Source: Coriobacteriales bacterium
Lineage (GTDB): Bacteria > Actinomycetota > Coriobacteriia > Coriobacteriales > UBA8131
DNA length: 64,000 bases
Assembly (NCBI GenBank): GCA_031263025.1
Contig: JAISGO010000038.1
Coordinates: 3,038-67,037 of the forward strand
Direction: 5' to 3'
The notes under the pieces are model-generated. The model did not search any database and had not been told where the DNA came from. It saw only the letters and a list, made by a program, of their open reading frames with translations. Within the stretch, counting starts at the first letter, position 1. The number at the start of each line of letters is the position of its first letter. The position numbers and the translations under genes were made by a program. Below are positions 43,146 to 60,169 of the stretch, one piece after another.

Positions 43146-43157
43146 TTGAATAAGGAA

Positions 43158-43379: not shown

Positions 43380-43409
43380 ATAGCCTTTTTGGCTTTTTTG
43401 CTCGACACG

Positions 43410-43832
43410 CTACATCCTCGTTAAGACGTTATTTGACACATAGAGGTTGCGGCGTCTGAACTCCGGAGGACTGTCGTCTCGCATGACTTTCACGAGTTCT
43501 GGCCTCAGCTCCCCTATAGGCCTTCCAGCGAGCAAAGGCCGATCAAGGAAATACTGCGGCTTCTCGGTCCAAGTGGGTACGCGCAGGTTAAAATCATGTG
43601 CGAGCTTTTCGGCCTCTGCGGCATATTCCGCCATGTCGTCGCATGAAACGTCATAGCCATCTTGCGGGATAGGTTCATACTCGATGAACGACTGTCGCTG
43701 TCTCGGTTTGGCCGCGTAAAAAGCATCGAGGAAATTGCCGTTTGCAGTTGCCGGATCCACGCCTAATGCGCGTTGTGCCATCACTTCACGGAAGTTCAGC
43801 GGTCGCCTATGTAGCAAATCCCTCATTCGCAT
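43410..43832 (-). CDS. hypothetical 140-aa protein ending at a TAG that is in frame with a 54-codon shared tail
   Basis: ORF ..NNVLTRM-TAG-RVEQKSQKGYPHLGPRKMDDTVAGATRASAAQAGR..REDDV* (43409-43245). Confidence 0.5.
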   Translation of the reverse strand: MRMRDLLHRRPLNFREVMAQRALGVDPATANGNFLDAFYAAKPRQRQSFIEYEPIPQDGYDVSCDDMAEYAAEAEKLAHDFNLRVPTWTEKPQYFLDRPLLAGRPIGELRPELVKVMRDDSPPEFRRRNLYVSNNVLTRM

Positions 43833-43942
43833 ATTTTACCACGGCATCAAGAAAGACAAGGCCGGGCACTACGGCCCGGTCTTATTCGGTTGATGAAACG
43901 TTTCAATCCACGTGTCTACTGAGGATAGACACGACGAGGCTA

Positions 43943-44788
43943 TTATACATCGTCTTCTCTGCCTACACCGCGCTGAGGGTTCCTGTTTTGTCCTTGGAAG
44001 TCCCTTCCTGCTTGCGCGGCGCTCGCCCTTGTCGCTCCGGCGACTATATCATCCATCTTCCGAGGACCGAGGTGAGGTACAGCCGGCTTAGATTTATCCT
44101 CGTTAATTTTCTGTCCCGTTCTCTCTTTCGAGAAGTCAGTACCGACAAGGCAATCCTCATAAAGGAATAGCTTCAAGGGGGTCGGTTCGTTCGTTTCGTA
44201 GAAGTCCGTGAGCGCTTTCCTGAACCGGCTTAACTTGTTCTCCGCGATAGCGAGGATGCCGAACCCCTGAGAAATGAGGTAATGATTCGCTGCGAGTTGC
44301 GCCGTCCGTTTATTGCCGTCGAAGAAAAGCTGCTTACGACAGACCCAGCACATTATGTCGAGGCCCTTCTCGGGGCCTTCGGGTCCACGTAACATGCTCT
44401 CGAACCCTTCCTTATCCATCTGTTCGTTTGGAATGTCGGGTCGCCATGTCGTGCCGCCGATCCTCACGTCCACCGTCCTGACTTTCCCAGGTTCCCTCGT
44501 AACCCCGGCCTCGCCGATAAGCTGGTTGAACTCTTTCAGCATCCGGAAATCAAGTGGCACCTCGATTTCCTGCAAGCAATACTCCCAAGCGTGTTTGAGG
44601 TTGTTGATGGCGATGGTCTCGTTTACGGAGAGACCTGACACGGTTCTCCCCTCGAAGATCTCGGCGGTGTCCGGAAAAGTTACGTTGATTCCCTCTAGCC
44701 TGGCCTCTTTCCATATACTATCGACCACAAGACGCTTGGCGTACCAAACGTTCTCCTCTTGCGTCATATCGAACTTGTTCTCGAACAT
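43943..44788 (-). CDS. Fic/Doc-family protein with non-canonical motif (Gln in place of catalytic His) and portable C-terminal tail
   Basis: CRKQLFFDGNKRTAQLAANHYL aligns to HxFx(D/N)(A/G)NKR; N-terminal ARLEGINVTF. Confidence 0.7.
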   Translation of the reverse strand: MFENKFDMTQEENVWYAKRLVVDSIWKEARLEGINVTFPDTAEIFEGRTVSGLSVNETIAINNLKHAWEYCLQEIEVPLDFRMLKEFNQLIGEAGVTREPGKVRTVDVRIGGTTWRPDIPNEQMDKEGFESMLRGPEGPEKGLDIMCWVCRKQLFFDGNKRTAQLAANHYLISQGFGILAIAENKLSRFRKALTDFYETNEPTPLKLFLYEDCLVGTDFSKERTGQKINEDKSKPAVPHLGPRKMDDIVAGATRASAAQAGRDFQGQNRNPQRGVGREDDV

Positions 44789-44814
44789 TATCTTTCCTAG
44801 CTTATTCTAACAGC

Positions 44815-46497
44815 TCATTTAGTCTTGGCCGACTTGGTGGCCGAGGTCGCCGAGAGGGCGGCTTTGACGCCATCGGGTCCGCTATGGTAGACGACGACCT
44901 TCACGGCGTACTTCTTCTTGTTCGCGAGCTTCAGGGTCGCCTTGTGGGTGGAGTTTGCCTGGTAGGTCTTGTGAGACCATTTGGAGGAGCCGGACTTCTT
45001 GTAGCAGACCTGGTAGTAGGAGACGTTGCCTCCGCTGGTGGAGTAGTCTTTCCAGGAGACGGAGAGCTTGTTGTTACCGGCTTTGAGCTTCAAGGAAGAG
45101 ACCTTATGCGGGTAGACCACGAAGACACCGATGGCGAGCTTCGTTACCGGCTTGTAGATGCTGCTACCGGCGCAACTCACGGAGAGGGTGTAGCGGCCGA
45201 CCTTGGTGGGCGTTGTGGCAGAGCCGTTGTAATAGACGGTGAGCTTACCGACGGGAGCGACAAGGGCGGACACGTTCGCCGAGAGCGCCTTCTTGTCAAA
45301 GGTCGCTTTATGGCTGTAGCCGAAGCAAGAGGGCGTGAGGGCCTTCTTGGCCACCGTCGGCGTAGGCGTAGGGGTTGGCTCGGGCGTCGGATCCGGAGTC
45401 GGGCCAGGCGTCGGCGTAGGGTCGGGAGTAGGGGTCGGGGTCGGGTCGACGTCTGACGAGGAAACCGGCTTGTAGTAAGCGCAGAGCGCGAGGCTGCCGT
45501 CGCTTGCGACGGTGCCGGAGAGCTTGTTTGCGGCATTCGCCGCGTCGAAGGTGTAACCGCTGAAGGACGCGCTCGGGTTCCCGCTCGTGTCCTCGGGGAC
45601 GCTCACGGTCGCACCGACCGTGCCGCTAAGGGTGCCGCCGTTGCCTAAGATGGTGCCGTCGTCCGCATAGTAGGTGACGCTATAGGCGGCGGTCGCCGCT
45701 GGTGTCGGGGTGGGAGTGGGATCGGGTGTAGGGGTAGGCGTAGAATCGTCTGCTGGATCCTTCGAGATCCAGGCGTGGAGATCTGCGGGTTGGTCGGCAT
45801 AGGGCGCAGAACTCCAGGCTTCGCCATCGGGTTGGCATTGACCGGCGGCTACCTCGTCGGCCACGAAGTCGTAATAGCCGTCCGCCGTATCGGTCGGGGT
45901 AGCGGTTGTGCCACCGCACAGGCTTTGAAGCGAGCATGAACCAAAAGGAACGTCCGACCCCTTAATTACGTACCCGTCCGGGTCGGCTTTCGCCGCCAGG
46001 GCGTCCTTCTCGGAGATGGTGGCTGATCCAGCGGTTTGGTCTACCTCGTCGATTTCAGGGATAATTTCGCCGTTCTGGTCATGTAGACCAGAGATGGGGC
46101 AGTTCCAGTTATTGGGGCGCTGATCACCCAGGAAACCCATAGAGGGGTCTGCGACGTCTGCTTCTGTCGACCATGTTCCAACGTCTTCGCCTGGATGTGC
46201 TTGTATCTCAGGCAGATGTTCTTTGATGTACTTGATGGTGACCTCTGACATGTACGCCCAAGGATAAGGAGGATTCCAGATATTAGGGTCGTTTGTACCT
46301 TTATAGTAAAGGCCTATTATGGGATACCAATCATGTACATCTTGCCAATGCAAGGTATAAACCCAGTGACCTGATTCCGACCCGCTGTCATCTGCGAAAG
46401 CCGGCTGGCTCGGTTTGCCGAGAAGCGAAGCGGCGAGGAGGAATGTCAAAGCGACTGCTAGGGCGATTCCTGCGATATGTAAGAGTTTCCTTGTCAT
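44815..46497 (-). CDS. secreted surface protein with Pro/Thr linkers and C-terminal Ig/FN3-like domains (paralog of 53728..54993)
   Basis: signal peptide MTRKLLHIAGIALAVALTFLLAASLL..AFA; PTPTPDPTPTP linkers; ATG 46497 lies 2 nt after the upstream stop. Confidence 0.7.
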   Translation of the reverse strand: MTRKLLHIAGIALAVALTFLLAASLLGKPSQPAFADDSGSESGHWVYTLHWQDVHDWYPIIGLYYKGTNDPNIWNPPYPWAYMSEVTIKYIKEHLPEIQAHPGEDVGTWSTEADVADPSMGFLGDQRPNNWNCPISGLHDQNGEIIPEIDEVDQTAGSATISEKDALAAKADPDGYVIKGSDVPFGSCSLQSLCGGTTATPTDTADGYYDFVADEVAAGQCQPDGEAWSSAPYADQPADLHAWISKDPADDSTPTPTPDPTPTPTPAATAAYSVTYYADDGTILGNGGTLSGTVGATVSVPEDTSGNPSASFSGYTFDAANAANKLSGTVASDGSLALCAYYKPVSSSDVDPTPTPTPDPTPTPGPTPDPTPEPTPTPTPTVAKKALTPSCFGYSHKATFDKKALSANVSALVAPVGKLTVYYNGSATTPTKVGRYTLSVSCAGSSIYKPVTKLAIGVFVVYPHKVSSLKLKAGNNKLSVSWKDYSTSGGNVSYYQVCYKKSGSSKWSHKTYQANSTHKATLKLANKKKYAVKVVVYHSGPDGVKAALSATSATKSAKTK

Positions 46498-46499
46498 AG

Positions 46500-46892
46500 C
46501 TAGGCCCACCCTTCCGGAGCGATTACGGTGGCGATTTCCTCGCCGCTCTGGTAGATGTTCCACATGCCGCCCGGCGTTCCCGGCAGGTCTTTCAGGTCGT
46601 CGTTCCTATCGTAGATGAGGTTGATGCCGCCGGGCAGCTTCCCGTTTTCCATTGCGAGCCAGGCGCCGATGTCTTGTAGCCAGGGAGATTCGGTCGCGGT
46701 GAAGGTCTCATGAAGTCCAATGAGGGTAATGCCGAGCGGGTCAAGTCTCGGGAGGCCGTCTATAGACGACCAATTGCCGATAATCGCCTCGGCACCGTCC
46801 ATACTGCCCCCGAGACTCGTGACGCCATAGACGATGATTCCGCTCTCCTGCCCGGTGAGTTCCTGTAATGAGCTGTACTCCGTCATGTTCAT
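46500..46892 (-). CDS. hypothetical 130-aa protein
   Basis: ATG 46892 after GGAGAT; ATGA overlap with upstream ORF. Confidence 0.5.
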   Translation of the reverse strand: MNMTEYSSLQELTGQESGIIVYGVTSLGGSMDGAEAIIGNWSSIDGLPRLDPLGITLIGLHETFTATESPWLQDIGAWLAMENGKLPGGINLIYDRNDDLKDLPGTPGGMWNIYQSGEEIATVIAPEGWA

Positions 46893-47110
46893 ATCTCCTT
46901 TTCTTTGCCAGTATAGTCCTTGTTTCCGTTTTGCGCTACATATGCGGCATACGCCGCCCGCCATTCCTTCTGAGTGCAACGCTCGAGGTTTTTGCGGTAC
47001 TCGCCACGTTCGTAGTACTTCATACCGCGACGGACGAAGGTGTTGAAGCAGTCGTAACTGTCACCTTCATAGATGAAGTGACTATCCTTTGTTCTCTCTA
47101 GCCGTTCCAC
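46889..47110 (-). CDS. hypothetical 73-aa protein (first gene of operon)
   Basis: GTG 47110 preceded by AAAGGAG; promoter directly upstream. Confidence 0.45.
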   Translation of the reverse strand: MERLERTKDSHFIYEGDSYDCFNTFVRRGMKYYERGEYRKNLERCTQKEWRAAYAAYVAQNGNKDYTGKEKEI

Positions 47111-47132
47111 AGTCTGCTCCTTTCTTTAATAT

Positions 47133-47161
47133 AGTATAGTATATACTATGCTATATGTCAA
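47133..47161 (-). promoter_or_regulatory. promoter TTGACA-17-TATACT with left-module operator motif
   Basis: minus strand TTGACA (47161-47156), TATACT (47138-47133); spacer CATAGTATATAC resembles the parA(L) operator. Confidence 0.55.
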
Positions 47162-47191
47162 GTGAGAAATGCGGATTCTTACGATAAAGTG

Positions 47192-47215
47192 GGGGCCGGA
47201 CTTGCGTCCGGCCCC
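47192..47215 (-). terminator. terminator candidate after 47241..48326
   Basis: GGGGCCGGAC-TTGC-GTCCGGCCCC. Confidence 0.6.
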
Positions 47216-47240
47216 GTCTGCTTCGGCACTCCTCGCGAGG

Positions 47241-48326
47241 TCACTTCCTCGACCCCAGCTTCTTCATGCCGATGCTGGCGTAGTAGTTGTAGGCCGGCGT
47301 GAACTTGTAGTAGAGCTTCTTGTACTTCGAGCCTGAGCGGTACTTGCTCGGCACCTTGTAGTACTTATAGACGTAGCCCGCCGTCAAGGTCTTCACCTTC
47401 TTGCTCTTGTAGTATAGGGTGAGCTTTCCTTTGGGGCAGTTGTCCGTGTAGTAGATCACCTCGTGCATGGAGCGGTCGTACTTCGCGTAGAGCGCCGCCG
47501 AGTACTTCGGCGGGTTCGAGGTGAAGCTGTAGGTGAAACCTTCGTTCCAAGTCGAGGGGTTGACCACGACCTTTACGCTATAAGTTTGCGTAAGGTCACT
47601 CGCGTAAGCGTCATAGACAACCCCGTCCTGGTCCGAGAAAGGCTTCGCGTTCACGCTACTCTTCTTGTGCCAGGCACCGCCGTAGTAGAGATAGAGGTCG
47701 ATGGCGGAACCATAGATACCTGAGATGTCGATGGTCTTATCGAAGTCGTAGAAGCTGGAATAACGGGTGTAGGTGGTAGCCTTCGCCGAATAGGTCGGCG
47801 TTCCCCGGTAGAAGGTGACGTTAAACAGGATACTTTCGTATCCTCTAAGACTGGGCACCGCATCATTATCGGCGATCCCGTAGTTCACCTCGTTATCCCA
47901 GAACTCGTTATCGTTCACGTAGGCGAGCTTGATGACCGTCCCCGGCGTCCAAGCGGGATTGAAGTCGAAGGGTACGACTTTTTGCGAGGTGGCGTCGGCG
48001 GTGATGTCGGTATCGCTTCCGCTGAAGTAGTCCCCGTTCTGATAGCTCGGCGCTTCGTTCGGCAGATACCAGGCCCCGCCGTCGTAGACGACCAGGTCGT
48101 ACTCCTTTCCCACCGTAAAGCCGGATATGTTGAGGGCCGTGCCTGCCGCCTTTGCGCTAGGCACCTGAAGCTCTTGTGCTGTAAGTGACCCGGAAGCGGC
48201 ATAAGCCTCCTTGTTCCCTCTCGTCAGGCCGGCCAGATTGAGGAGACCCGCCGCCAGCGCTACCGCGAGTAGGCAGGCGACGACCCATCTCCCTGTTTTC
48301 CTTGTAAAACCCTTGCTTTCCATCAT
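47241..48326 (-). CDS. secreted protein of unknown function (Tyr/Lys-rich C-terminus)
   Basis: ATGATG 48326 after AAGGAG; signal/TM segment WVVACLLAVALAAGLL. Confidence 0.6.
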   Translation of the reverse strand: MMESKGFTRKTGRWVVACLLAVALAAGLLNLAGLTRGNKEAYAASGSLTAQELQVPSAKAAGTALNISGFTVGKEYDLVVYDGGAWYLPNEAPSYQNGDYFSGSDTDITADATSQKVVPFDFNPAWTPGTVIKLAYVNDNEFWDNEVNYGIADNDAVPSLRGYESILFNVTFYRGTPTYSAKATTYTRYSSFYDFDKTIDISGIYGSAIDLYLYYGGAWHKKSSVNAKPFSDQDGVVYDAYASDLTQTYSVKVVVNPSTWNEGFTYSFTSNPPKYSAALYAKYDRSMHEVIYYTDNCPKGKLTLYYKSKKVKTLTAGYVYKYYKVPSKYRSGSKYKKLYYKFTPAYNYYASIGMKKLGSRK

Positions 48327-48391
48327 GTACTCCTTAGTCGTTAAACCGTTTGCGTAAAACCTTCGTGTCGTCCATAGGCTCCTTTCTTTCT

Positions 48392-51358
48392 TCACCGTCT
48401 CCCCGTATTGCCCTTTGCCGGCATCTTGCGCTTTTTGCGTGATACGCGGATAAGCGCGGCCCCCGCGCAGAGCGCTGCTAAGACGGCGGCGATGAGCAGG
48501 GTGGCGAGCCGCTCTCCGGTCTGCGGCAGGTTGCCGTAAGTGCCTTCCGCCGAGCCGTCCTCGCCGAAGCTCACCTGGCGGTTCGACTGGGTGAGGTTCA
48601 GGTTGAAGGTGTCCATGAAGGCGGTCGGCGAAGTCGCGGTCGCCTGTTTGGTGAGCGCGGGATCGCCGTTCTTGGAGACCTCGGCGTGTACGGTCTGTAT
48701 CGGCGTATTGACGTTACCGGCGGCGTCGTGTGTCCAGAAACCTTTCGTGCCATACATCTCGACGTAGTTGGTGTAATTCTCGGTGTAAAGGCCACCGTCG
48801 ACCTGTACGCCGTTGGTGTGGTCGCCGTCCACGTAGGGAGCCTTCTCGTAAGGAGAGTGGTTCTGCGGCTGTTCGCTGTAGCTCTTATAGGTGCCATAGT
48901 CGTGCGACGGGTTCACGCCGTAAGGGGTGACCCCACTAGAGGTGTCCTTGAACTCACCCGGGATCATGCCGGCCGGGTTCGCGATTGTCCCCGGGTTCGT
49001 ACCTGTGAGTGTCTGATAGTGGCCGATGTAGAAACCCTCCGCGACTGCGCCGAACACGTACTTGATGGAGGTGATGTACTCCCCGGGTTGTAGGTTGAGG
49101 TCGCTCGCGTAAAGCTCGTGCGGCACCAGGGTGGAAAGCCCGTCCTCCCATACCCGGTAGCCCGCTGGGTAGGAGATCTGGCTGGTCTTCGCCGCGGGTG
49201 TGGCGATGTCGGGGTTCGCCGGATTGTCGGCGAGCGGATCGACCTTGTAGTCCGGTTTCACGTCGGGGTTTCCGGCGGTGAGATTCGTCGCATAAAGCAC
49301 CGCGAAGGTATTGTCGAAGTCAAGGCCGGGTTCCACGGTGTAGGTACGCAGCATTTTCACGCGCAGACCCCATTCGGCGCCGAAGAGGTCGTTCGTGAGC
49401 GTGAACTCGTCGACCGCCGCGTTCGTCTCGTTCCTGCCGGCGAAGAAGGTCTGGAGGTACTGGCTTCCGACCTGATTCGGCTCCCCGTAGGCGCGACCGT
49501 CGAAGGCGACGTTCGAGTTGTCTACCGTGTCCGAAAAACAGGCCACGGCATCTGATACCGCCTTATCCTGGTAAGCCGCGATCACGGTATCGGCGGTCGG
49601 TGCGGTGACCGCGTTCGCGGTCTGGGAGTCGACGATGTAGTAAGTGGCGTCCTTTCTGCCGCACTCATGCGGCAGCAGGTACGCCGGGTTCGACTTCACC
49701 TCCACGACTTTATAGATGCCAAAGGGCAGGTCGGTGAAGGTGCAGGTGCCGTCCGCACCGGTGGTGAGGTCGTCAGTCAGGGGAGTAAGCCCTGCGCTGC
49801 CGTCGTTTGCGACCACGTTTCCGGCCGCGTTATAGGCAAGCGCGGCGGAAACCCGCTCCCAGCTCGCGTTCTCCTTCATCGCGGACGAGATCCTCGTAGT
49901 CACCCGGCCCTCTGCGACTTGCGCATGGACGTCGGTGTAGAGCTGGAACTCGGTATCGGGCACCGCCGCCTTGGTGTCGGCGTCGGTCTTTTGCACCTTG
50001 ATGGACTTCAGGGTGTAATCCTGGTAAGGCGCCGCCACGGTGTCCTTCACGGTCGAACTTGAGTTCGCGGTCTTGTCGACCACGTAATAATGCGCCGACG
50101 GGAAGCCGGCTTGCTCCTGGGACTGGTAGGAGGTGTTCGGCGTCACCTCCAAGGCCATGTAATAGCCGAAGGGCAAGTCCTCAAAAGTGCAAGTTCCGTC
50201 CGGGCCGGTTTCGAGGTCGTCGGTAAGCGGCTTCAAGTTACCTTTGCTACCGATGAGCGCGACGTTTCCGTTCTTGTCGTAGCCGTAATATGCGGAAACC
50301 CTTACCCAGTTGCCGCCGGTAGAGCTATCGACTTCCCCATCTTTAACGGTAACGCCGCTCTTGACGTAGAGCTGGAAACGGGTATCGGGCACCGCAACTC
50401 CCGTGTCGGCGTCGGACTTCTCGACCCGCACCTGCTTTAGGGTGTAGTCGGCGAAGGGAACCTCCACGGTGTCCTTGTAGGCAGAAGCCGAGTTCGCGGT
50501 CTTATCGACCACGAAGAAGTGTCCGCCGGGGTTTCCGGCTTGCGCCTGCGACTGGTAGCCTTTGGTAGGCGTCACCTCGATGGCCTCGTAAAGCCCGAAG
50601 GGCAGATCCTTGAAGGTGGCCGAGCCGTCCGGCAGCGTGGTGGTGTCGTCGGATAAGGGGGTAAGACCCGCCGAGCCGTCGTTTGTAACGACGTTTCCGG
50701 CCGTGTCATAGGCGTATGCCTTCGAGACCTTGACCCAACCCGCGCTATCCGCCTGGGCGGTGGCCAGCTCGGTGGTAACGGAGCCGTCTGCTACCTTAGC
50801 CGCGGGGTAGACCATGAGCTTAAACTCGGTGCCGGCGATCGCTACCTTGGTGTCGGCGTCTGACTTCTCGACCCGCACCTGCTTTAGGGTGTAGTCGGCG
50901 TATTGTTTGGTGATTATGTTCGTGGTCTTATCCACGGTAAAGTACTGCGCTGCCTCCTGGCCTTCCTGGGCACGGGACTGATAGGCTACGTTCGGGGTCG
51001 TCTCCACGATCTTGTAAGCGCCGACGGCGACCGGCGAGAAGAGGCATTTACCGGTAGACAAGGTGGCGTGGGTAGTGGTAAGCTTCCAGTCGCCTGCCAC
51101 AGTCGCTTCCAGGTCGGTTTCTGTCGGGTTCTCGATCTGACCGGTGTATTTGTAAAGCGTGTAGGTAGTGTTCGCGACCATGACGCTAGTGTCGATGTCG
51201 GACTTCTGCACCACTAGCTCGTGCGGCGGTTCGTCATAGGTGATGGTGACGTTATCGACATCATGGTTTCCTGGCGTTACCTGCATCACCGTCGGGGTGT
51301 TATCTTTCGGGAGCTGATAGCCGACGGGTGGGTTCGTTTCCTGGATTACCAAGGTACC
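48392..51358 (-). CDS. LPXTG-anchored adhesin with >=4 tandem SpaA/Cna-B-like domains, 5'-truncated (no signal peptide)
   Basis: LPQTG (48529-48515) + hydrophobic helix + RKKRK tail; ~130-aa repeats ending DLPFG.Y..(I/V)EV.P..(G/S)YQSQ; homology stops at 51358. Confidence 0.7.
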   Translation of the reverse strand, partial: GTLVIQETNPPVGYQLPKDNTPTVMQVTPGNHDVDNVTITYDEPPHELVVQKSDIDTSVMVANTTYTLYKYTGQIENPTETDLEATVAGDWKLTTTHATLSTGKCLFSPVAVGAYKIVETTPNVAYQSRAQEGQEAAQYFTVDKTTNIITKQYADYTLKQVRVEKSDADTKVAIAGTEFKLMVYPAAKVADGSVTTELATAQADSAGWVKVSKAYAYDTAGNVVTNDGSAGLTPLSDDTTTLPDGSATFKDLPFGLYEAIEVTPTKGYQSQAQAGNPGGHFFVVDKTANSASAYKDTVEVPFADYTLKQVRVEKSDADTGVAVPDTRFQLYVKSGVTVKDGEVDSSTGGNWVRVSAYYGYDKNGNVALIGSKGNLKPLTDDLETGPDGTCTFEDLPFGYYMALEVTPNTSYQSQEQAGFPSAHYYVVDKTANSSSTVKDTVAAPYQDYTLKSIKVQKTDADTKAAVPDTEFQLYTDVHAQVAEGRVTTRISSAMKENASWERVSAALAYNAAGNVVANDGSAGLTPLTDDLTTGADGTCTFTDLPFGIYKVVEVKSNPAYLLPHECGRKDATYYIVDSQTANAVTAPTADTVIAAYQDKAVSDAVACFSDTVDNSNVAFDGRAYGEPNQVGSQYLQTFFAGRNETNAAVDEFTLTNDLFGAEWGLRVKMLRTYTVEPGLDFDNTFAVLYATNLTAGNPDVKPDYKVDPLADNPANPDIATPAAKTSQISYPAGYRVWEDGLSTLVPHELYASDLNLQPGEYITSIKYVFGAVAEGFYIGHYQTLTGTNPGTIANPAGMIPGEFKDTSSGVTPYGVNPSHDYGTYKSYSEQPQNHSPYEKAPYVDGDHTNGVQVDGGLYTENYTNYVEMYGTKGFWTHDAAGNVNTPIQTVHAEVSKNGDPALTKQATATSPTAFMDTFNLNLTQSNRQVSFGEDGSAEGTYGNLPQTGERLATLLIAAVLAALCAGAALIRVSRKKRKMPAKGNTGRR

Positions 51359-52533
51359 CCTACGAGACTGTCGTGGCTTTCGACGGGAGGCAGTGGGGCG
51401 ATGAAGACTTACGCGGCAAAGAGGAGCTGCCACTTTGGTTTGCTGGGCGAAATGAATCAAACTCAGGAGTAGACGAGTTCAGCCTGACAGAAGACTTGAA
51501 TACGCTGGCTGATACTTGGGGTATGCGGCTAGAACGTTTCAAGACTTATCCAGTTGAACCAGGTCTTGACCTGGATGGCAAGTTCGCAGTTATCTATGAG
51601 ACGAACCTCACCCGTGGCAATGTCGATATAAGACCACAATATACGACTGCACCTCTAGCCGGTAATCCCGAGAACCCCACGAACCCAGATAAGCAGAGTC
51701 TGATTTCGTACCCTGTCGGCTACAGGGTATGGCAGGACGGTTTAGATACTAGCAAAGTATATGATCTCAAGGCGAGCGCGCTGGCTTTGCAAGCAGGTGA
51801 GTACATCACCGGCGTGAAAGTTGTATATGGTGCAGTCGCCGAGGGTTTCTATGTGGGGCACTACCAGCCGCTTACTGGTCAAAATCCTGGAACCCTGGAT
51901 AATCCTGGGGGTATGGCGCCAGGACAGTTTAAAGATACTAGCGACGGCACTAAGAGCAGTGGGCTAAACCCAAGCCATAATTGGAGGGACTATGACGAAC
52001 TGCCGAATGAGGTCTTCGGTGATAAGGTATTCCCTTTCCAGGCTTATACCCACAAAGTCGATCCGATATATAACGGGCAAGTATACAATCCTGACATCTA
52101 CACGACCCGGGAAAGCCTGACCATGCGCGGCACCACAGACGGAGGTCTGCACAACGAACAATATAATCCAACGCTTTTCTTGACTTGCGTCAAGTCCTGG
52201 AACAATATCGACGACGCGGGTAATCACCAGGTGGCAACGCAGACGGTTCATGCGGAAGTGTCGAAGAACGCCTCTGAGAGTTTGACCAAACACGCAGACG
52301 CCACTTCCGATACTACGTTTTTCTCAGGCTTTAGGATTTGGACGAAGAATTATGAGGATGACGTAGCTGACACCTCCATTTATGGGAGCGAGGACGGCGC
52401 CGTACAAACAGCGGCAAACGCGAAAAGTCCTCTTTATAGCCTAATCACGATGGCGGTGATAATGATGGCGCTTGCAGCCGCGACCGGCGCGGTCGCATAC
52501 ACCAAGAAGCGAAAAGGTGGCAGTAAGAAGTAG
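51328..52533 (+). CDS. C-terminal fragment of a paralogous adhesin (no signal peptide, non-LPXTG tail); likely gene remnant
   Basis: ~55% identical to the last ~400 aa of 48392..51358 (VAFDGR..FAGRNE(S/T)N..VDEF(S/T)LT..); ends in TM helix + KKRKGGSKK. Confidence 0.55.
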   Translation: MGSFPGLPRYPYETVVAFDGRQWGDEDLRGKEELPLWFAGRNESNSGVDEFSLTEDLNTLADTWGMRLERFKTYPVEPGLDLDGKFAVIYETNLTRGNVDIRPQYTTAPLAGNPENPTNPDKQSLISYPVGYRVWQDGLDTSKVYDLKASALALQAGEYITGVKVVYGAVAEGFYVGHYQPLTGQNPGTLDNPGGMAPGQFKDTSDGTKSSGLNPSHNWRDYDELPNEVFGDKVFPFQAYTHKVDPIYNGQVYNPDIYTTRESLTMRGTTDGGLHNEQYNPTLFLTCVKSWNNIDDAGNHQVATQTVHAEVSKNASESLTKHADATSDTTFFSGFRIWTKNYEDDVADTSIYGSEDGAVQTAANAKSPLYSLITMAVIMMALAAATGAVAYTKKRKGGSKK

Positions 52534-52534
52534 C

Positions 52535-53305
52535 GTGGTTAGAGAGAGCGCCAAAAATAGAAGTACCGCAATAAAGATGGCGTTAATAGCTGCGAGCGTA
52601 TTGTTTGCGCTCGCAGCTATTCTGCTTCTATATAAGGTATGGGCGTACTGGAAGCAAACACCAGAAGGTGTGTATGCGCCTTATCAAGAGGACACTGTTG
52701 GAAACACTGAGGACACAGATAAGATGCCAAACCCAGACTGGGTGAAGTTGAAGCAGGCGAACTCTGCATGTATCGGCTGGATCTGCATACCCGGAACGAA
52801 AATCAACTATCCCATTGTCAAAGGTGGAAATGCAAACAAAGGAGAGCGGGAGTGGTGGCTACATCATGATTTCGAGGGACATCAATCAAGTTATGGGGCA
52901 ATCGCCACTGACCTTGACGGAGGCCTCGATGAAGCGAACAATTTCATATACGGTCATAACATGGCCGATGGCTCGATGTTCCACGACCTCAATAAGTACT
53001 TGGAGGGCTCTTATCTGAAAGACCACGCATACGCATATATTGTTACACCTGACAGGAGCATGAGGCTTGTAATAACCAGCGTGAGTTTAGTGCCGGGGAA
53101 TAAATCGCGGTTCTGGCTGCGTAACGACTTCGGCGATAAAGCAGAGCTAAGGCGTTATCTCGAGGAGTTCTACAAAAACTCTGAGGTGAAGTCTGCGGAT
53201 GGGAAAAACGTGATCAGGGGCAAAGGACAGAACTTCTGCTTGTACACATGTTACGGGGCAGATGATAGATACCGCGTCCTCGTGATGGCACAGCAAGAGC
53301 ACTAG
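52535..53305 (+). CDS. srtB: class-B-like sortase
   Basis: IPGTKINYPIV, IYGHNMADGSMFHDL, Cys in LYTCY, N-terminal TM anchor; start GTG 52535 or ATG 52577. Confidence 0.75.
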   Translation: MVRESAKNRSTAIKMALIAASVLFALAAILLLYKVWAYWKQTPEGVYAPYQEDTVGNTEDTDKMPNPDWVKLKQANSACIGWICIPGTKINYPIVKGGNANKGEREWWLHHDFEGHQSSYGAIATDLDGGLDEANNFIYGHNMADGSMFHDLNKYLEGSYLKDHAYAYIVTPDRSMRLVITSVSLVPGNKSRFWLRNDFGDKAELRRYLEEFYKNSEVKSADGKNVIRGKGQNFCLYTCYGADDRYRVLVMAQQEH

Positions 53306-53312
53306 AAAAGAA

Positions 53313-53334
53313 CTAGCCGCCCGAAGGCGGCTAG
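53313..53334 (+). terminator. terminator candidate after the sortase gene
   Basis: CTAGCCGCC-CGAA-GGCGGCTAG. Confidence 0.55.
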
Positions 53335-53540
53335 AAGATGAGCGCCAGAAATCAATAGTGAGTTGAGTTTGGCAGGCTCAAAATTAAAAGGTGATATAAA
53401 TATAGCACTAATTCAGAAAAAGTCAAACGAGAAGGATTAAGTCCTAGAGCCGCCGGGGACTACCAAGTAGAATAGATAAACGAGTTAGCGTTTCGCCGGG
53501 TGCGCCTAATCTTCCCGTGGGGAGAGGAGGTGATGCCCTC

Positions 53541-53648
53541 ATGGATGTCTTACAGCTGATAACCGCAGCGATCCGGCTTTTGCTGGTCGTGGCGAAGCTG
53601 CCGAAAGCGTTCAGACGTTTGCGCCAGGAAAGGAAGAAGCGCCCGTAA
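53541..53648 (+). CDS. 35-aa hydrophobic/basic peptide, copy 2
   Basis: identical peptide to 42958..43065; same SD; lies in the 263-bp repeat 53466-53728. Confidence 0.5.
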   Translation: MDVLQLITAAIRLLLVVAKLPKAFRRLRQERKKRP

Positions 53649-53727
53649 AGGACGCTTCCTAATCTTAATCGGCGCACCCGACACCAGTTACAACCACGGG
53701 GCGCTAACTCATTTGATTATACCACGG

Positions 53728-54993
53728 CTATTTGGTTTTGGCCGTTTTAGTGGCACTAGTGGAGCTTACGCCAGCGCGGACGACAGAGACCTTGACTGTG
53801 TACTTCTTCTTGTCCCTAAGCTTCAAAGTTACCTTGTGTGCAGAGCTTGATTTGAGCGATTTGGTCTTCCAAGTTGTCCCTTTGGTCTTATAGGAGACCT
53901 TATAGGAGGAGGCGTTGGCTTTACTTGACGAGAAGTTCTTCCAGGAGACAATCAGCTTGTTGTTACCTGATTTGACTTTGAGAGCGGAGACCTTATGCGG
54001 GTAAATGGTGTATGTACCAAGCTCCAGCATCATAGCCGCGTTATAAGCGTCGGATCCCGTACAAGAGACCGAGACGGTGTACTTTCCGGCCTTGGTCGGA
54101 CGTTTCGTTGACTGGTTGTAGTAGACCTTTATCTTGCCAGCTGCGACCGATGATTTGACGTCAGAGGATTGAGTTTTCTTGTTGTACGTGTCAGAGGTCT
54201 CGAAGGTGAAATCTGAAGCGCTGAGGTCGGCTTTAGTGATACCGGCAGGTTCTTCGGGAACGACTGGGACGATTGGGGCAACTGGAGTGTTCGGAGAAGG
54301 CTCAGGCTCTGGTTGTGGATTAGGATTAGGGACGGGATTAGCCGGTGTAGGCTTAGGATTAGGGGTCGGCTGAGGGTTAGCGACCCATTCACTTGTAATG
54401 TAACCGCCTTTGTCGCCGCAAGTATTAAGGCAGTTCCAACCAAGTGGATCGGGGAACATGAAAAGCTCATCGGGGTTAGCTTCAGCTTGCAGGGCTAGGT
54501 CTTCGGGTATCACAACTTCGCCGGCAGTTTGGTAAACCTGGACAATTTCGGGGATGATGTCGCCGTTCTGATCCGGAAGACCAGAGATTCTAGCGTCTAC
54601 ATTTGAGTGTTCATTAAGCTCCGATAGCAAACCCATCGAGGGGTCATTTATGTCTTCTTCAGTTGACCAACAAAGAACATCAGTAGACGTGTCTTTAAGG
54701 ATTTCGTCCATGTGTTTGTTGATGTATTTTACGGTAACTACCGACATACGCTTCCAGGGATAAGGTGGGTCGAATTGATAAGGGTCATTTGCAGCCGAAA
54801 AGTATGTTCCCCGCAGAGGAGTCGATGTTGACGCTTCCGAGTAGTGCAGGGTATAGACATAATGACCAGATTCGCTTTCGTTTGCAAAAGCAGAATGGGC
54901 GGTTTTACCAAGAAGAGCGAGAGAAAGGACAAGGGAAAGGGCGATGCAAAAGGCGGCTTTAATCGCCGTTGTACGAGCGGTGTTCTTGTTCAT
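53728..54993 (-). CDS. secreted surface protein (paralog of 44815..46497)
   Basis: signal peptide ..LLGKTAHSAFA; shared ESGH(W/Y)VYTLH, DPSMG, QNG(E/D)IIPEI; RBS AAGGAGG. Confidence 0.7.
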   Translation of the reverse strand: MNKNTARTTAIKAAFCIALSLVLSLALLGKTAHSAFANESESGHYVYTLHYSEASTSTPLRGTYFSAANDPYQFDPPYPWKRMSVVTVKYINKHMDEILKDTSTDVLCWSTEEDINDPSMGLLSELNEHSNVDARISGLPDQNGDIIPEIVQVYQTAGEVVIPEDLALQAEANPDELFMFPDPLGWNCLNTCGDKGGYITSEWVANPQPTPNPKPTPANPVPNPNPQPEPEPSPNTPVAPIVPVVPEEPAGITKADLSASDFTFETSDTYNKKTQSSDVKSSVAAGKIKVYYNQSTKRPTKAGKYTVSVSCTGSDAYNAAMMLELGTYTIYPHKVSALKVKSGNNKLIVSWKNFSSSKANASSYKVSYKTKGTTWKTKSLKSSSAHKVTLKLRDKKKYTVKVSVVRAGVSSTSATKTAKTK

Positions 54994-55038
54994 AGTAGCC
55001 TCCTTAAAGCTTTATAGATTTTATATAAGAAAGTACGG

Positions 55039-55078
55039 TATATACAAGCTATAAATATTTATTTATAGCTTGTATATA
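55039..55078. promoter_or_regulatory. perfect 19-bp inverted repeat (right-module operator type) upstream of 53728..54993
   Basis: TATATACAAGCTATAAATA-TT-TATTTATAGCTTGTATATA. Confidence 0.6.
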
Positions 55079-55249
55079 ATTATAGCATTTATATCACTTC
55101 GCGTCAACTACACTACGCTTCCAAGATTACTCGCGTCCGGGCGCTCTTCGCTGGGGGCCGTCCCCGGCACCCACGCAACATTCAGTTGGTGGCAGGCTTT
55201 CAGTTGTCAAGGTGCAAATACCCAAGTCCTGGAAAGGACGGCGGGAGAT

Positions 55250-55660
55250 TTAATCTCCCGCCGAGTAGGCATCTCGGTGATGACGAAGAAAGGCCTTACT
55301 TTTACCTAAGAGGCCAACGGCGATGATGTCGAAACGGATACGGCAGGATTCGTAGTTATGAGTGGAGAGGTAGTCGATGACGAGCTTCTCAGCGGCTTTG
55401 CGTCCTGCCCTGATCTCCTCGTTAGTCTCCTCCGGTAGCTCTCCGGTAGTGGAGGCTCTCACATCCGCGAAAACGAGTTCGTTGTCTTCTTTGTAGATGA
55501 GGTCGGCTTGACCCGATCCTGAACGCCAGTCTTTCTCTAAGACTTCGATTCCCTGCCTTTTAAGGTAAATGGTAGCTACCTCTTCTGCCTTGTTCAATTG
55601 CTCTTCAAACTCTTCTTTCCTTGCCACCCTGCTGTCAATCTGGTTTGCTACTGCCTGCAT
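55250..55660 (-). CDS. YraN/UPF0102-like protein (right)
   Basis: GQADLIYKEDNELVFADVR retains D..(D)xR positions; paralog of 42398..42817. Confidence 0.6.
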   Translation of the reverse strand: MQAVANQIDSRVARKEEFEEQLNKAEEVATIYLKRQGIEVLEKDWRSGSGQADLIYKEDNELVFADVRASTTGELPEETNEEIRAGRKAAEKLVIDYLSTHNYESCRIRFDIIAVGLLGKSKAFLRHHRDAYSAGD

Positions 55661-55715
55661 TTCAGGCTCCTTTCCTTTGGGGTCTTCCTGGCCCCGTTGT
55701 CAATGCCGATGTGAA

Positions 55716-55835
55716 GCCACGGCGCAAGTGGTTGCGTCAAGGGGACAAGGCCTCGCTTTAAGGAGCTGAGGCGATGGCCAGCCATCGTCCAGCGGTAATC
55801 GAGGTCGGCCCTTGCGCGGCCGCTCGCGCCGTGGC
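55716..55835 (-). other. 120-nt long-stem hairpin (right-module counterpart of 42208-42339), followed toward 56025 by a polypyrimidine (minus-strand) tract
   Basis: GCCACGGCGC (55716-55725) / GCGCCGTGGC (55826-55835); minus-strand loop ATTACCGCTGGACG..CCTCAGCTCCTTAAAG. Confidence 0.65.
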
Positions 55836-56025
55836 AAAACGTGAGGCTTGACAGCGGAGGCAGGAAAAGAGGGAAAGGTCTAAAAGATTGCAGGCGAACA
55901 AGATTATCGGTTCATGCAGCGGGTGTAAGAGGTTTGAAGCTGGGCGGGGAAAAGGGAGAGAGAGAGATTTGAAACCTCCCTCCCAACAGGGCAAAGTGAA
56001 GACAATGGTAATGCGTTCAGGTGGC

Positions 56026-56742
56026 TTAAAGCTGACTCTCCAGGAAGGAAGTCACGCCATCCTCGTCGGTGGAGGTCTCATCTACTGGGGCTTCAGGAGA
56101 AAGATCATCGGGGGACTTGGCCAAGATGTAGTTCTCAGGAAGGACGGGCCCGTCCTCGGCATCTGCTTCTTCCGTTGCGAGGTTTGCCTCTTCGTCGGCT
56201 AAGGCTTTCTGCAGGGCTTTCGGAGTGTAGCCGAGCTTGTCGGCGATCTCCTCGTCGCTTATGCCAAGATTGGCTTGTTGTAGATAGCGGAAGAGCTCCG
56301 CCACTTTCGCGTTGTAGGAGGCGACTGCCGGGCTCGAGTAACAGAGAAGCTCCTGGGCCTTGAATTTATTGGCGTTGATAAGCTCTCCACCTTGTTTCCA
56401 CAAGACGAGTTCGTCGTCTACGGTTACTTGTGTGATGTAGTCAACCTCGTCTTTACCGACAAGTGCGGTACGGCAGCAGAGCAGGTTGTTCGAGTAGGGG
56501 ATTTTGGTAAAGCGTCCTGGGGTGTGCTCCACTTCCGCATAATGGGGAGACTCACCTCCGCTACCGCCAGGGGCGTCGTGGAAGTAGACGTCGAGGCAAA
56601 GCCCGGTCTCGTGAATGGTGTCGAGGGTTAGCTGAAACTCAGTCACAACGTTCTGCTCGCCCTTGATCGGGTCTTTAGTCGTATAACAGTCTGTGTCGAA
56701 GATATTGACACGACCGTTCTCGAAATAGACATTGACTTTCAT
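56026..56742 (-). CDS. conserved hypothetical protein (paralog of 41271..42014)
   Basis: same position after the relaxase; SDEEIADKLGYTPKALQKALADE. Confidence 0.6.
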   Translation of the reverse strand: MKVNVYFENGRVNIFDTDCYTTKDPIKGEQNVVTEFQLTLDTIHETGLCLDVYFHDAPGGSGGESPHYAEVEHTPGRFTKIPYSNNLLCCRTALVGKDEVDYITQVTVDDELVLWKQGGELINANKFKAQELLCYSSPAVASYNAKVAELFRYLQQANLGISDEEIADKLGYTPKALQKALADEEANLATEEADAEDGPVLPENYILAKSPDDLSPEAPVDETSTDEDGVTSFLESQL

Positions 56743-56763
56743 GGTCGTTCCTTTCTCTTTGGA

Positions 56764-58185
56764 TTAACGGGCACCTCGAGAAGGCGAGCTGCGGCCTCTC
56801 GATTGCGGACTATGTTGCTGCGGCCGAGAACCGGAGGAGCTGTGGTGCCTTCCACTACCGCTTCCAAACATCTCGCGTTCCCTGTCCCGAGCCGTGCCTT
56901 TCTCATATTTGCCGACCCCTCTAGCCTTATTGCGGGCTGCAATGTCCCGAGCCTGTTCTCCAAGAGGCGATAACGGACGCTGGCTAACAGAGCGCGCCGG
57001 TAGCATCTTCGCTTCACTCGCGACTTTCTGGATGTTGGCAAGTTCGGCTTTCGCCGCCGGGTTCCGCACTTCGAGCTTGTCGAAGCCGGCAAGCGAGCAG
57101 ATACCGAAAGTGTTTATGAAGGATAGTGCTCGGGAGATGTCTTTAAGGCTGTAATTCGCACCAGGAGCGACTGTCGCGACCTTTCTTGCACCTCTAGGCC
57201 AAAGTTGTCCCGCGATGGCCGCAGCGGCGCTCTCAGGGCTCTTCTGACGCTTTATCTGGGCGTCGCGAGAGAAGTATCGTTTGATATTGCCCGAGCGAAA
57301 GTCATTGCCGAGTTTCCAGGCGCCGACCTGGCGGCTCGGCTGGTCGGTCAAGCGATAGATGAAGTCTCCCGCGTGTGCTTTCGAGGTTGAATAGTCGAGG
57401 CTTATGCCCATCACGTTCAAGGAGCGGACGTAGCCGGACATATCCTTGGCCGTCTCGTAGGCGATCCGTACCCGGTCAGCGATGTCCGACTTCCAGGAGT
57501 AGGTTCCGGTGCCTTCTGCACGTATCTCCGCGAAGCTGCGGTTACGCGGTGTCGTGAAGGCTTCCCGCTCGGGCTCCGGCACCTGGTAGTGTTCATCTCT
57601 TTCCTCCTCGGTACGTGAGAGCGTGCTCGCATAATCGTTGTTGAAATAGTGCAAGTGATGTGCGCGGGCGAGGTCGTTTAGGCTATGCCGGAGACTGCGG
57701 TTCGAGGCGTCGGAGATCTGTAGCCTCTTGCCGTTTGTGAGGTCTGTGTTGTTCACGATAACGTGGGCGTGGGCAACACCGTGGCTGCCGTCGTCATGGA
57801 CTATCACCACCCATTCGTAAAGCCCGAGGCTACCAGTATGTCCATCTGAGCCGAACCAAACCCGGCAATACTCATTCGCAAGCTCCAGCACATCATGGGT
57901 AGACAGCTTGTCGGCGGGATCAGGCGAGAGCAGGAGATGATTCGCCCTTACGCACTTACGTCCCCGCCATCCGGTATCGTTTCCGGCGGCCTTGCGGCTT
58001 GCGTCCATCTCTTTGTCCCAGCTGTCAAGGGGGTTGAGTGAGACCATGTTCTCCGCGTGAAAGGCACGGACGCGGTTACGGCCGAGGGCGAGGTTCTTGC
58101 GGTAGGCTTCCCCTTTGCCGAAGAGCAGGTAGTTGCGCACTCCAACGATAGAGCGATGCACCCTTCTTGCCCCGAACTTCGGCAT
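56764..58185 (-). CDS. MOBQ/MobA-VirD2-type relaxase (right)
   Basis: VHDDGSHGVAHAHVIVNNTD; N-terminal VRNYLLFGKGEAY. Confidence 0.8.
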   Translation of the reverse strand: MPKFGARRVHRSIVGVRNYLLFGKGEAYRKNLALGRNRVRAFHAENMVSLNPLDSWDKEMDASRKAAGNDTGWRGRKCVRANHLLLSPDPADKLSTHDVLELANEYCRVWFGSDGHTGSLGLYEWVVIVHDDGSHGVAHAHVIVNNTDLTNGKRLQISDASNRSLRHSLNDLARAHHLHYFNNDYASTLSRTEEERDEHYQVPEPEREAFTTPRNRSFAEIRAEGTGTYSWKSDIADRVRIAYETAKDMSGYVRSLNVMGISLDYSTSKAHAGDFIYRLTDQPSRQVGAWKLGNDFRSGNIKRYFSRDAQIKRQKSPESAAAAIAGQLWPRGARKVATVAPGANYSLKDISRALSFINTFGICSLAGFDKLEVRNPAAKAELANIQKVASEAKMLPARSVSQRPLSPLGEQARDIAARNKARGVGKYEKGTARDREREMFGSGSGRHHSSSGSRPQQHSPQSRGRSSPSRGAR

Positions 58186-58187
58186 GG

Positions 58188-60167: not shown

Positions 60168-60169
60168 CT

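What the first reader, a model, noticed from the sequence alone, without database searches (positions are those of the whole stretch)
51328..51460. Head-to-head junction of two 5'-truncated paralogous adhesin genes marks the symmetry axis
The minus-strand adhesin loses homology at 51358, in the middle of a Cna-B/SpaA-like repeat (..RR|GTLVIQETNPPVGYQ). It has no signal peptide.

The plus-strand paralog begins homology at ~51367 (..TVVAFDGRQWG, equivalent to the last ~400 aa of the other gene). It also has no signal peptide.

The two truncated 5' ends abut within ~10 nt around a GGTACC palindrome (51353-51358). This is a rearrangement breakpoint, caused by an illegitimate inversion or fusion of the two modules.

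Neither adhesin can be exported as encoded. Downstream genes (47241..48326 and the sortase) lose their natural upstream context.
Basis: seen in the sequence. Interest (0 to 1): 0.55.

Follow-up and report, generated by a model that had tools for sequence, protein, structure and literature searches.

The report
Two beheaded adhesin genes, head-to-head
Two related cell-wall adhesin genes from two related mobile elements each lack their front end and abut head to head within 8 bases; this is an ordinary rearrangement scar, or less likely an assembly error, that leaves two dead genes.

Summary
The minus-strand ORF (48392-51460) matches its family only from Gly35 (51358), the last strand of a domain that related genomes encode in full. 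The plus-strand ORF (51328-52533) matches only from Thr14 (51367) and equals the last ~370 aa of the other gene (45% identity, E 5e-91). Neither has a signal peptide, whereas full-length relatives (760-1840 aa) do.

The junction is the axis of two diverged (35-57% aa) mobilizable modules in mirror image. Each carries an IS30 transposase, ParA, a NikA-like protein, a MobA relaxase, YraN, a surface protein and an adhesin.

The junction has no repeated site, no site-specific recombinase and no other adhesin fragment in the 64 kb.

My best reading (0.55) is a recent illegitimate rearrangement, most simply a deletion across the meeting point of two inversely oriented elements. It removed both 5' parts and both promoters.

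An artefactual join in this metagenome-assembled contig cannot be excluded (0.3), and GC3 jumps from 0.79 to 0.56 at the junction. However, at most 8 nt could be shared at the join, which argues against a k-mer-driven misjoin.

The GGTACC palindrome is not significant. The finding is ordinary, so interest is low.

The parts
48392..51358 (-). AdhL', the 3' remnant of an LPXTG adhesin gene. It runs from the last strand of a truncated domain through four SpaA (PF17802) stretches and a ~370-aa C-terminal region to LPQTG, a TM segment and a basic tail. The open frame continues to a TTG at 51460 through unrelated sequence.
   Evidence: Homology to relatives starts at Gly35 (51358). There is no signal peptide. 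NCBI calls it MDR1016669, 986 aa, not flagged as a pseudogene.
51359..51366 (.). Junction: 8 nt (CCTACGAG) that belong to neither homology. The GGTACC palindrome at 51353-51358 abuts it.
   Evidence: No copy of the flanking sequence occurs elsewhere in the window. The palindrome is not significant.
51367..52533 (+). AdhR', the 3' remnant of a paralogous adhesin gene. Only the family-specific C-terminal region and the anchor remain. NAKSP stands where AdhL has LPQTG, followed by a TM segment and KKRK.
   Evidence: In 116 relatives this domain lies near the C-terminus of proteins of 500-2150 aa. There is no Pfam or PDB match and no signal peptide.
52535..53305 (+). Sortase directly downstream of AdhR', class-B-like. 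It is now without the operon's 5' end.
   Evidence: Pfam Sortase 32.4 bits against a cut-off of 26.6. TIGR03064 srtB 117 bits, below its cut-off of 153.75. A 256-aa version is called on Logan contig L003.
47241..48326 (-). 361-aa secreted or membrane protein of unknown function, directly downstream of AdhL' in the same operon direction.
   Evidence: MDR1016668. N-terminal hydrophobic segment.
33902..51358 (+). Module L. IS30 transposase (33902-35053, -), ParA, HipA-like, Fic, NikA-like, MobA/VirD2 relaxase (39742-41244), X (41271-42014), YraN/UPF0102 (42398-42817), toxin-like repeat D2, Fic-like, surface protein (44815-46563, -), 159-aa and 361-aa proteins, AdhL'.
   Evidence: GC3 is about 0.58-0.81, close to the chromosome.
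51359..62672 (-). Module R, the mirror image of L. AdhR', sortase, D2 repeat, surface protein (53728-54993), YraN (55250-55660), X (56026-56742), relaxase (56764-58185), NikA-like (58188-58793), AbiEii, ParA (60782-61333), IS30 transposase (61527-62672, +).
   Evidence: Pairwise identities to module L proteins are 28-57% aa. GC3 is 0.53-0.67.

Best explanation
The junction is a real but non-functional scar.

Two distantly related mobilizable elements of one family lie next to each other in opposite orientation in a Coriobacteriales genome. Each carries an IS30-family transposase, ParA, a NikA-like protein, a MobA relaxase, YraN, a surface protein and an adhesin operon. The adhesin operons pointed away from the shared boundary.

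One recent illegitimate (non-homologous) rearrangement made the junction. The simplest version is a deletion spanning the boundary. It removed both promoters, both signal-peptide and N-terminal parts, and whatever lay between. That left the 3' 2.97 kb of one gene and the 3' 1.17 kb of the other 8 nt apart.

Shown: both genes are truncated, there is no signal peptide, the breakpoints are sharp, the modules are mirrored, and no repeat or recombinase lies at the junction.

Inferred: the event is recent, it was a deletion rather than another rearrangement, and both remnants and their downstream genes are now silent.
For: - Truncation and breakpoints.
- Full-length relatives with a signal peptide: list, ORFs of 760-1657 aa in related loci, hydropathy.
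- Mirror-image modules at 28-57% aa identity: with family assignments.
- Both remnants are still open over 988 and 389 homologous codons, while other frames of the region carry a stop every 16-86 codons. Both keep the invariant residues of the family's C-terminal domain. They therefore diverged as working genes and were cut recently.
- Two long genes that flank a shared boundary are the likeliest end points of a deletion across it.
- A k-mer-driven misjoin needs 20 nt or more common to both true loci. Here at most 8 nt can be shared, and homology-driven misjoins are collinear, not head to head.
- To the right of module R, GC returns to 0.56-0.59, the level of the chromosome on the left. This fits one host genome.
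- No adhesin 5' part follows module R's far end in the 1.6 kb seen beyond the window. R therefore did not simply insert into AdhL.
Against: - The contig comes from a metagenome-assembled genome.
- No read-level or independent-contig support for the junction could be obtained. Logan contigs of the same sample stop at 51688 on the right, and the only one retrieved on the left covers 47194-49298.
- Composition changes abruptly at the junction: GC3 0.79 against 0.56, with a low tetranucleotide correlation.
- About 22 kb of the 86-kb contig lie outside the window, so a reciprocal junction (inversion) cannot be excluded.
- No related element with an intact gene pair was found to show the ancestral state.
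Confidence: 0.55

Rival explanations
1. The join is an assembly or library artefact. The chromosome with module L and the piece carrying module R are not adjacent in any cell. A chimeric read, or a low-k bridge between two dead ends in repeat-rich adhesin genes, joined them.
For: - The source is a MAG contig.
- GC3 shifts sharply at exactly the junction.
- Both breakpoints lie where repetitive SpaA-type sequence would begin in intact genes, which is where assemblies break.
- An independent assembly of the sample is fragmented here and no contig across the junction was seen.
- The organism was seen in one sample only.
Against: - No shared sequence long enough for a graph misjoin: at most 8 nt, and no repeat of the junction sequence in the window.
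- Similarity-driven chimeras join paralogues collinearly, not head to head.
- A random chimera would not be expected to join two members of the same rare element family at the same rare gene family.
- GC to the right of module R returns to the level of the left-hand chromosome.
Confidence: 0.3
2. It is an illegitimate inversion. The two elements once lay in tandem with both adhesin genes on the same strand. One inversion with a break in each gene produced this head-to-head junction. It would also have produced a reciprocal junction elsewhere, where the two 5' parts converge.
For: - Tandem accretion of related elements at one site is common (general knowledge).
- Undoing such an inversion would give two co-linear elements with the same gene order (derived).
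- Relative to the backbone, the segment with the surface-protein gene and the D2 repeat is inverted between the two modules, so this element family has undergone inversions.
Against: - No adhesin 5' fragment anywhere in the 64 kb, nor in the 1.6 kb beyond the right end.
- It needs two simultaneous non-homologous breaks that both happen to fall in paralogous genes far apart, which a deletion between neighbouring genes does not.
- No inverted repeat lies at the break.
Confidence: 0.1
3. It is a programmed variation system. The two promoterless 3' parts would be cassettes that become attached to a constant 5' expression segment elsewhere. Attachment could be by site-specific inversion (shufflon-like) or by gene conversion (pilS-like).
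For: - Head-to-head 5'-less paralogues are the layout found at the border of two shufflon segments (general knowledge).
- Both frames are intact.
- AdhR' starts almost exactly at a domain boundary.
Against: - No tyrosine or serine recombinase among the module ORFs scanned.
- No crossover-site repeat at the junction or elsewhere in the window.
- No constant 5' segment in 64 kb.
- The cassettes share no 21-mer with anything else in the window and are only 45% identical in protein, so gene conversion has no substrate.
- AdhL' starts inside a domain.
Confidence: 0.03

Closest known systems
Sortase-anchored SpaA/Cna-B-repeat surface adhesins of Gram-positive bacteria (Pfam PF17802; NCBIfam NF033902-like)
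   Same: AdhL' has four SpaA stretches and an LPQTG sorting signal. Both remnants carry the family's C-terminal domain, a TM segment and a basic tail. A sortase gene follows AdhR'.
   Different: Both lack the signal peptide and N-terminal region that all full-length relatives have. AdhR' has no SpaA repeat left, and NAKSP stands in place of LPXTG. The ~190-aa C-terminal domain has no Pfam or PDB match.
Gene remnants at deletion or rearrangement junctions in islands rich in mobile elements
   Same: Sharp non-homologous breakpoints inside coding sequence, no site or repeat at the join, and intact but promoterless and leaderless frames.
   Different: Both remnants belong to the same gene family and lie on the axis of two mirrored, related elements. 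This is tidy, but it is expected if those long genes flanked the boundary.
Shufflons (R64 Rci/sfx) and other multiple-inversion systems
   Same: Head-to-head 5'-less paralogous 3' gene parts.
   Different: No recombinase, no crossover repeats and no constant 5' segment.
ICE6013-type elements that use an IS30-family DDE transposase (recalled from the literature, not read here)
   Same: Each module has an IS30-family transposase above the NCBIfam cut-off beside transfer-related genes, namely a NikA-like protein and a MobA/VirD2 relaxase.
   Different: No type IV secretion or coupling protein was seen among the module ORFs scanned, so these would be mobilizable rather than conjugative. The element ends were not defined.

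Membership tests
Sortase-anchored SpaA-repeat adhesins | N-terminal Sec signal peptide | tested here: not met
   No hydrophobic segment follows any possible start. The best 12-residue hydropathy is 0.07-0.88, against 2.3-3.6 in twelve full-length homologues.
Sortase-anchored SpaA-repeat adhesins | SpaA / Cna-B-type repeats | tested here: met
   AdhL': PF17802 at 5.1e-35 in four stretches. AdhR' has none left.
Sortase-anchored SpaA-repeat adhesins | C-terminal sorting signal (LPXTG-type motif, TM segment, basic tail) | tested here: met
   AdhL': LPQTG plus TM plus RKKRK, with TIGR01167 at 17.4 bits against a cut-off of 15.9. AdhR': NAKSP aligns to LPQTG and is followed by TM plus KKRK. Its motif is non-canonical. 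The resemblance to class-B sortase motifs is from memory only.
Family-specific C-terminal domain of Coriobacteriia adhesins (unnamed) | ~170-190-aa domain with invariant D, G, DEF, YxTN, W, EY, GxV and F positions, lying 150-300 aa before the C-terminus | tested here: met
   116 relatives at E <= 1e-3. Alignment A3 with 21 invariant columns, kept in both remnants. Seven loci, all in Coriobacteriia-class MAGs, several from termite guts by their isolate names.
Class B sortase | Score above the curated cut-off of TIGR03064 | tested here: inconclusive
   117 bits against a cut-off of 153.75. The Pfam Sortase domain is above its cut-off. NCBI names it class B sortase.
Shufflon / invertase-driven cassette systems | Site-specific recombinase gene in or beside the locus | tested here: not met
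   Pfam and NCBIfam scans of the larger ORFs of both modules find only IS30 DDE transposases.
Shufflon / invertase-driven cassette systems | Short inverted crossover repeats at the 5' ends of the cassettes | tested here: not met
   Short-word BLAST of 51250-51480 against the window gives only chance matches of 12 nt or less. No inverted repeat at the junction.
Shufflon / invertase-driven cassette systems | A constant 5' gene segment with promoter and signal peptide | tested here: not met
   tblastn of about 100 homologues finds no adhesin fragment outside 48300-52600. The 22 kb of the contig outside the window could not be searched.
Silent-cassette gene conversion (pilE/pilS-like) | Full-length expression copy sharing near-identical blocks with the cassettes | not testable with these tools
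Neither remnant shares a 21-mer with anything else in the window.
IS30-transposase mobilizable elements | IS30-family DDE transposase together with a relaxase | tested here: met
   NF033563 at 207 and 195 bits against a cut-off of 80. PF03432 relaxase at 8.4e-17 and 7.1e-13.
IS30-transposase mobilizable elements | Defined element ends (terminal inverted repeats, target duplication) | not tested
   AT-rich repeats flank both transposase genes, but the ends of the whole modules were not defined.

The most novel reading that the evidence does not exclude
The two promoterless, leaderless 3' halves would be maintained cassettes rather than debris. In this reading, mobilizable elements carry exchangeable adhesin C-termini, each with its own sorting signal and, in one case, its own sortase. 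An as yet unseen recombination step would splice them onto a resident 5' expression segment, changing the tip and anchoring mode of a surface adhesin.
Probability: 0.03. Interest if true: 0.6.

Novelty: new member of a known kind. Interest (0 to 1): 0.2.

Why it matters
The finding matters mainly as a correction.

- The public annotation lists both ORFs as ordinary proteins: MDR1016669 as an 'LPXTG cell wall anchor domain-containing protein' and MDR1016670 as 'hypothetical protein'. They are 5'-truncated remnants that cannot be secreted.
- The junction is a place where the integrity of this MAG contig should be checked before the 86-kb contig is used as evidence that the two mobile modules share one genome.
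- If the junction is real, it documents accretion and decay of two related IS30/relaxase elements carrying adhesin cargo in Coriobacteriia that appear, from the names of related MAGs, to come from termite guts. That is of modest interest.

Tried and rejected
- **Close relatives with intact genes.** Word-indexed protein searches with both ORFs returned only the ORFs themselves, and a search with a domain profile returned one fragment. Scans of genome, metagenome and viral contigs with the paralogue alignment found nothing. A metagenome scan with the surface-protein alignment found nothing. Plasmid searches gave only distant Staphylococcus relaxases and no adhesin.
- **Independent contig across the junction.** Logan contigs of SRR14710920 are 99.99-100% identical to the window but short. 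They cover 47194-49298, 51688-53510, 53651-61429 and 62787 onward.
- **Frameshift instead of truncation.** Rejected: no frame on either strand continues the homology.
- **Simple insertion of one module into the other's adhesin gene.** Rejected for L into AdhR, because no AdhR 5' part lies anywhere to the left. Disfavoured for R into AdhL, because HipA/HTH rather than adhesin follows R's far end.
- **Transposase-end junction (IS30 IR-IR).** Rejected: the AT-rich repeats next to the transposases have no counterpart at the junction.
- **Structure of the C-terminal domain.** The AlphaFold model from three sequences had pLDDT 38, so no fold search was run. The profile search against PDB was empty.
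- **Rfam and tRNA scans of the window.** Both empty.
- **Literature search for the run and the sample name.** Nothing useful.
Full report
**What is at the coordinates**

Two ORFs overlap at 51328-51460. One runs on the minus strand (48392..51460, 1022 codons from a TTG). The other runs on the plus strand (51328..52533, 401 codons from a GTG).

The minus ORF has four SpaA/prealbumin-fold stretches (PF17802, 5.1e-35). After them come a region of about 370 aa and then LPQTG, a hydrophobic segment and a basic tail. The plus ORF has no Pfam or NCBIfam match. It aligns over 392 columns with residues 651-1016 of the minus ORF at 45% identity, E 5e-91. The paralogy is real.

**Are both truncated?**

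A full HMMER scan of 1.84 billion representative proteins with the plus ORF gave 116 relatives.
- The shared domain corresponds to query residues about 14-190. In relatives it almost always lies 150-300 residues before the C-terminus of proteins of 500-2150 aa.
- Those scanned have SpaA repeats upstream of it.
- Complete relatives begin with a Met and a hydrophobic leader and end in an [LFM]PxTG-type signal.
- The best 12-residue hydropathy in the first 70 residues is 2.3-3.6 in twelve full-length relatives. It is 0.07-0.88 for every possible start of the two window ORFs.
- In Coriobacteriia-class MAGs, several from termite guts by their names, the genes are intact ORFs of 760-1657 aa.

**How sharp are the breakpoints?**

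- For the minus ORF, tblastn against six related loci has a hit starting at residue 35 in each.
- In four of those loci the homologue reads '...ASG.PTR(T/S)WV...PL|GT(L/V/I)..(Q/H)E..P.GY.LP'. The window has 'GTLVIQETNPPVGYQLP' preceded by unrelated sequence that contains stop codons. Gly35 is codon 51358-51356.
- For the plus ORF, matches start at residues 12-17 in the HMMER search and at residue 14 or later by tblastn. In the domain alignment the nearly invariant Thr of the first strand is Thr14 (51367). The conserved 'TI' before it is replaced by 'YP'.
- tblastn of about 100 relatives against the window gave 292 hits. Apart from two self-hits of the 361-aa downstream protein, none lies outside 48300-52600. 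No plus-strand hit lies left of 51361 and no minus-strand hit lies beyond 51409.
- The two homologies are therefore 8 nt apart (51359-51366). No frame continues either gene, and no other fragment of such a gene lies in the 64 kb.
- GGTACC is at 51353-51358 as stated. A 6-nt palindrome somewhere in such a span is expected about 17% of the time.

**Context**

An all-against-all comparison of stop-to-stop ORFs shows that 33.9-62.7 kb consists of two diverged modules in mirror image.

| Component | Module L | Module R | aa identity |
|---|---|---|---|
| IS30-family transposase | 33902-35053 (-) | 61527-62672 (+) | 57% |
| ParA | 35270-35818 | 60782-61333 | 43% |
| NikA-like | 38775-39239 | 58188-58793 | 28% |
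| MobA/VirD2 relaxase | 39742-41244 | 56764-58185 | 37% |
| Unknown protein X | 41271-42014 | 56026-56742 | 36% |
| YraN/UPF0102 | 42398-42817 | 55250-55660 | 37% |
| Surface protein | 44815-46563 | 53728-54993 | 47-50% |
| Adhesin remnant | 48392-51358 | 51367-52533 | 45-49% |

- Both transposases score 207 and 195 bits against an NCBIfam cut-off of 80. A small ORF next to ParA is also shared (44%).
- The junction is the axis of this mirror. The symmetry is not perfect: both surface-protein genes are on the minus strand, and the 270-nt, 93%-identical repeat D2 is direct.
- No tyrosine or serine recombinase was found among the module ORFs scanned.
- No inverted or direct repeat marks the junction.
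- No promoter-like site lies within about 400 nt of it.

**Timing**

The modules differ far too much to be a recent duplication, yet both remnants are intact.
- They are open over 988 and 389 homologous codons. Other frames of the same region carry a stop every 16-86 codons.
- Both keep the invariant residues of the family domain.

They therefore evolved as working genes in separate elements and were cut recently, or were never cut in vivo.

**Real or artefact?**

The contig is from a MAG, 'Coriobacteriales bacterium'. Its proteins are MDR1016668-71, the locus tags include LBL67_04310 and LBL67_04320, and the contig is 86,451 nt.

Points for an artefact:
- GC3 changes from 0.79 (AdhL') to 0.56 (AdhR'). 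Chromosomal genes at 0.5-30 kb are at 0.65-0.86.
- The only independent assembly I could reach is Logan contigs of SRR14710920, which are 99.99-100% identical to the window. It is fragmented throughout, covering 47194-49298, 51688-53510 and 53651-61429.

Points against an artefact:
- A de Bruijn misjoin needs a shared k-mer. At most 8 nt can belong to both true loci, and the junction sequence has no repeat in the window.
- Misjoins through paralogy are collinear, not head to head.
- A random chimera would hardly join two members of one rare element family at one rare gene family.
- The 1.6 kb beyond the right end of the window returns to GC 0.56-0.59, like the left-hand chromosome.

I put a real junction at about two in three.

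**Which rearrangement?**

- Insertion of L into AdhR is excluded, because no AdhR 5' part lies to the left.
- Insertion of R into AdhL is disfavoured. Beyond the IS30 gene of R come a low-GC DUF2971 gene and then a HipA/HTH pair, not an adhesin 5' part.
- An inversion would leave a reciprocal junction. None is in the window, but 22 kb of the contig are unseen.
- A single deletion across the boundary between two inversely oriented elements needs one event. It also explains why both ends fall in the long genes that flank that boundary. This is my best explanation (0.55), with inversion kept as a rival (0.1).
- A programmed system, whether shufflon-like or silent cassettes, fails every feature I could test and gets 0.03.

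**Consequences (inferred)**

- Both remnants lack a promoter, a start context and a leader, so they should yield no surface protein.
- The 361-aa gene downstream of AdhL' and the sortase downstream of AdhR' depend on read-through or internal promoters that I did not find.
- AdhR' has NAKSP where AdhL' has LPQTG and is followed by a class-B-like sortase. From memory, class B sortases recognise NP(Q/K)TN-, NAKTN- and NPKSS-type signals. The intact gene probably had a dedicated sortase.

**Verdict**

The interpretation as a breakpoint that kills both genes is right. The mechanism and even the physical reality of the join need the reads. The finding is an ordinary scar, or an assembly flaw, in an island of mobile elements, so interest is low.

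Noticed in passing
window 42877-43146 and 53460-53729 (both + strand): This is a 270-nt repeat, 93% identical, between modules whose proteins are only 28-57% identical. It carries a strong RBS and a 35-codon ORF (MDVLQLITAAIRLLLVVAKLPKAFRRLRQERKKRP). The RNA folds with long-range 5'-3' pairing (-114 kcal/mol, z -4.85). It looks like a hok-type (type I) toxin cassette. It has no Rfam or NCBIfam match and sits at the convergence point of backbone and adhesin operon in both modules.
   Followed up: partly
window 33902-62672: Two diverged modules lie in mirror image, each with an IS30 transposase, ParA, NikA-like protein, MobA relaxase, YraN and a surface protein. No type IV secretion genes were seen among the ORFs scanned. 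They are probably a family of mobilizable elements that use an IS30-type transposase. The module proteins tested (adhesin paralogues, surface proteins, relaxase) found no close relatives in the collections scanned.
   Followed up: partly
window 42877-46563 versus 53460-54993: Relative to the backbone, the segment holding the D2 repeat and the surface-protein gene is inverted in one module compared with the other. The mirror symmetry is therefore broken here.
   Followed up: no
window 43133-43379 and 43833-44077: A direct duplication about 245 nt long and 84-91% identical, 700 nt apart, flanks a 140-aa ORF. It starts with the same 'ATTATACCACGGC' motif that ends both D2 copies.
   Followed up: no
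window 55033-55095, 60443-60505, 61358-61488, 62657-62769; also 33871-33921 and 35065-35222: AT-rich repeats spaced 17 nt apart (TATATAATTATAAAG-like in module R, TATAGTATA-like in module L) flank both IS30 transposase genes and lie next to ParA. They could be iteron-, parS- or transposase-binding-like arrays.
   Followed up: no
window 51367-51950 and 48950-49513; loci L004-L010: The ~190-aa adhesin C-terminal domain has no Pfam or PDB match. It has 116 relatives in 1.84 billion representative proteins. All seven loci found in GTDB genomes are Coriobacteriia-class MAGs, several from termite guts by their isolate names.
   Followed up: partly
window 52420-52533 and 52535-53305: AdhR' has NAKSP at the position of LPXTG and is followed by a class-B-like sortase, whereas the paralogue AdhL' has LPQTG and no sortase nearby. 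The two paralogues therefore have different anchoring routes.
   Followed up: no
window 32160-33605 and 62964-63920: Low-GC genes lie just outside both transposases: an Mrr-type restriction endonuclease (GC about 0.42 in this region) and a DUF2971 protein (GC 0.355). Beyond the right end of the window a HipA/HTH pair follows at GC 0.56-0.59.
   Followed up: no
window 42181-42230 / 42317-42366: A 50-nt inverted repeat, 82% complementary with an 86-nt spacer, lies between gene X and the YraN gene of module L. Its function is unknown.
   Followed up: no
window 48392-52533: The public annotation gives both remnants protein accessions without flagging truncation: MDR1016669 (986 aa) and MDR1016670 (386 aa).
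   Followed up: yes
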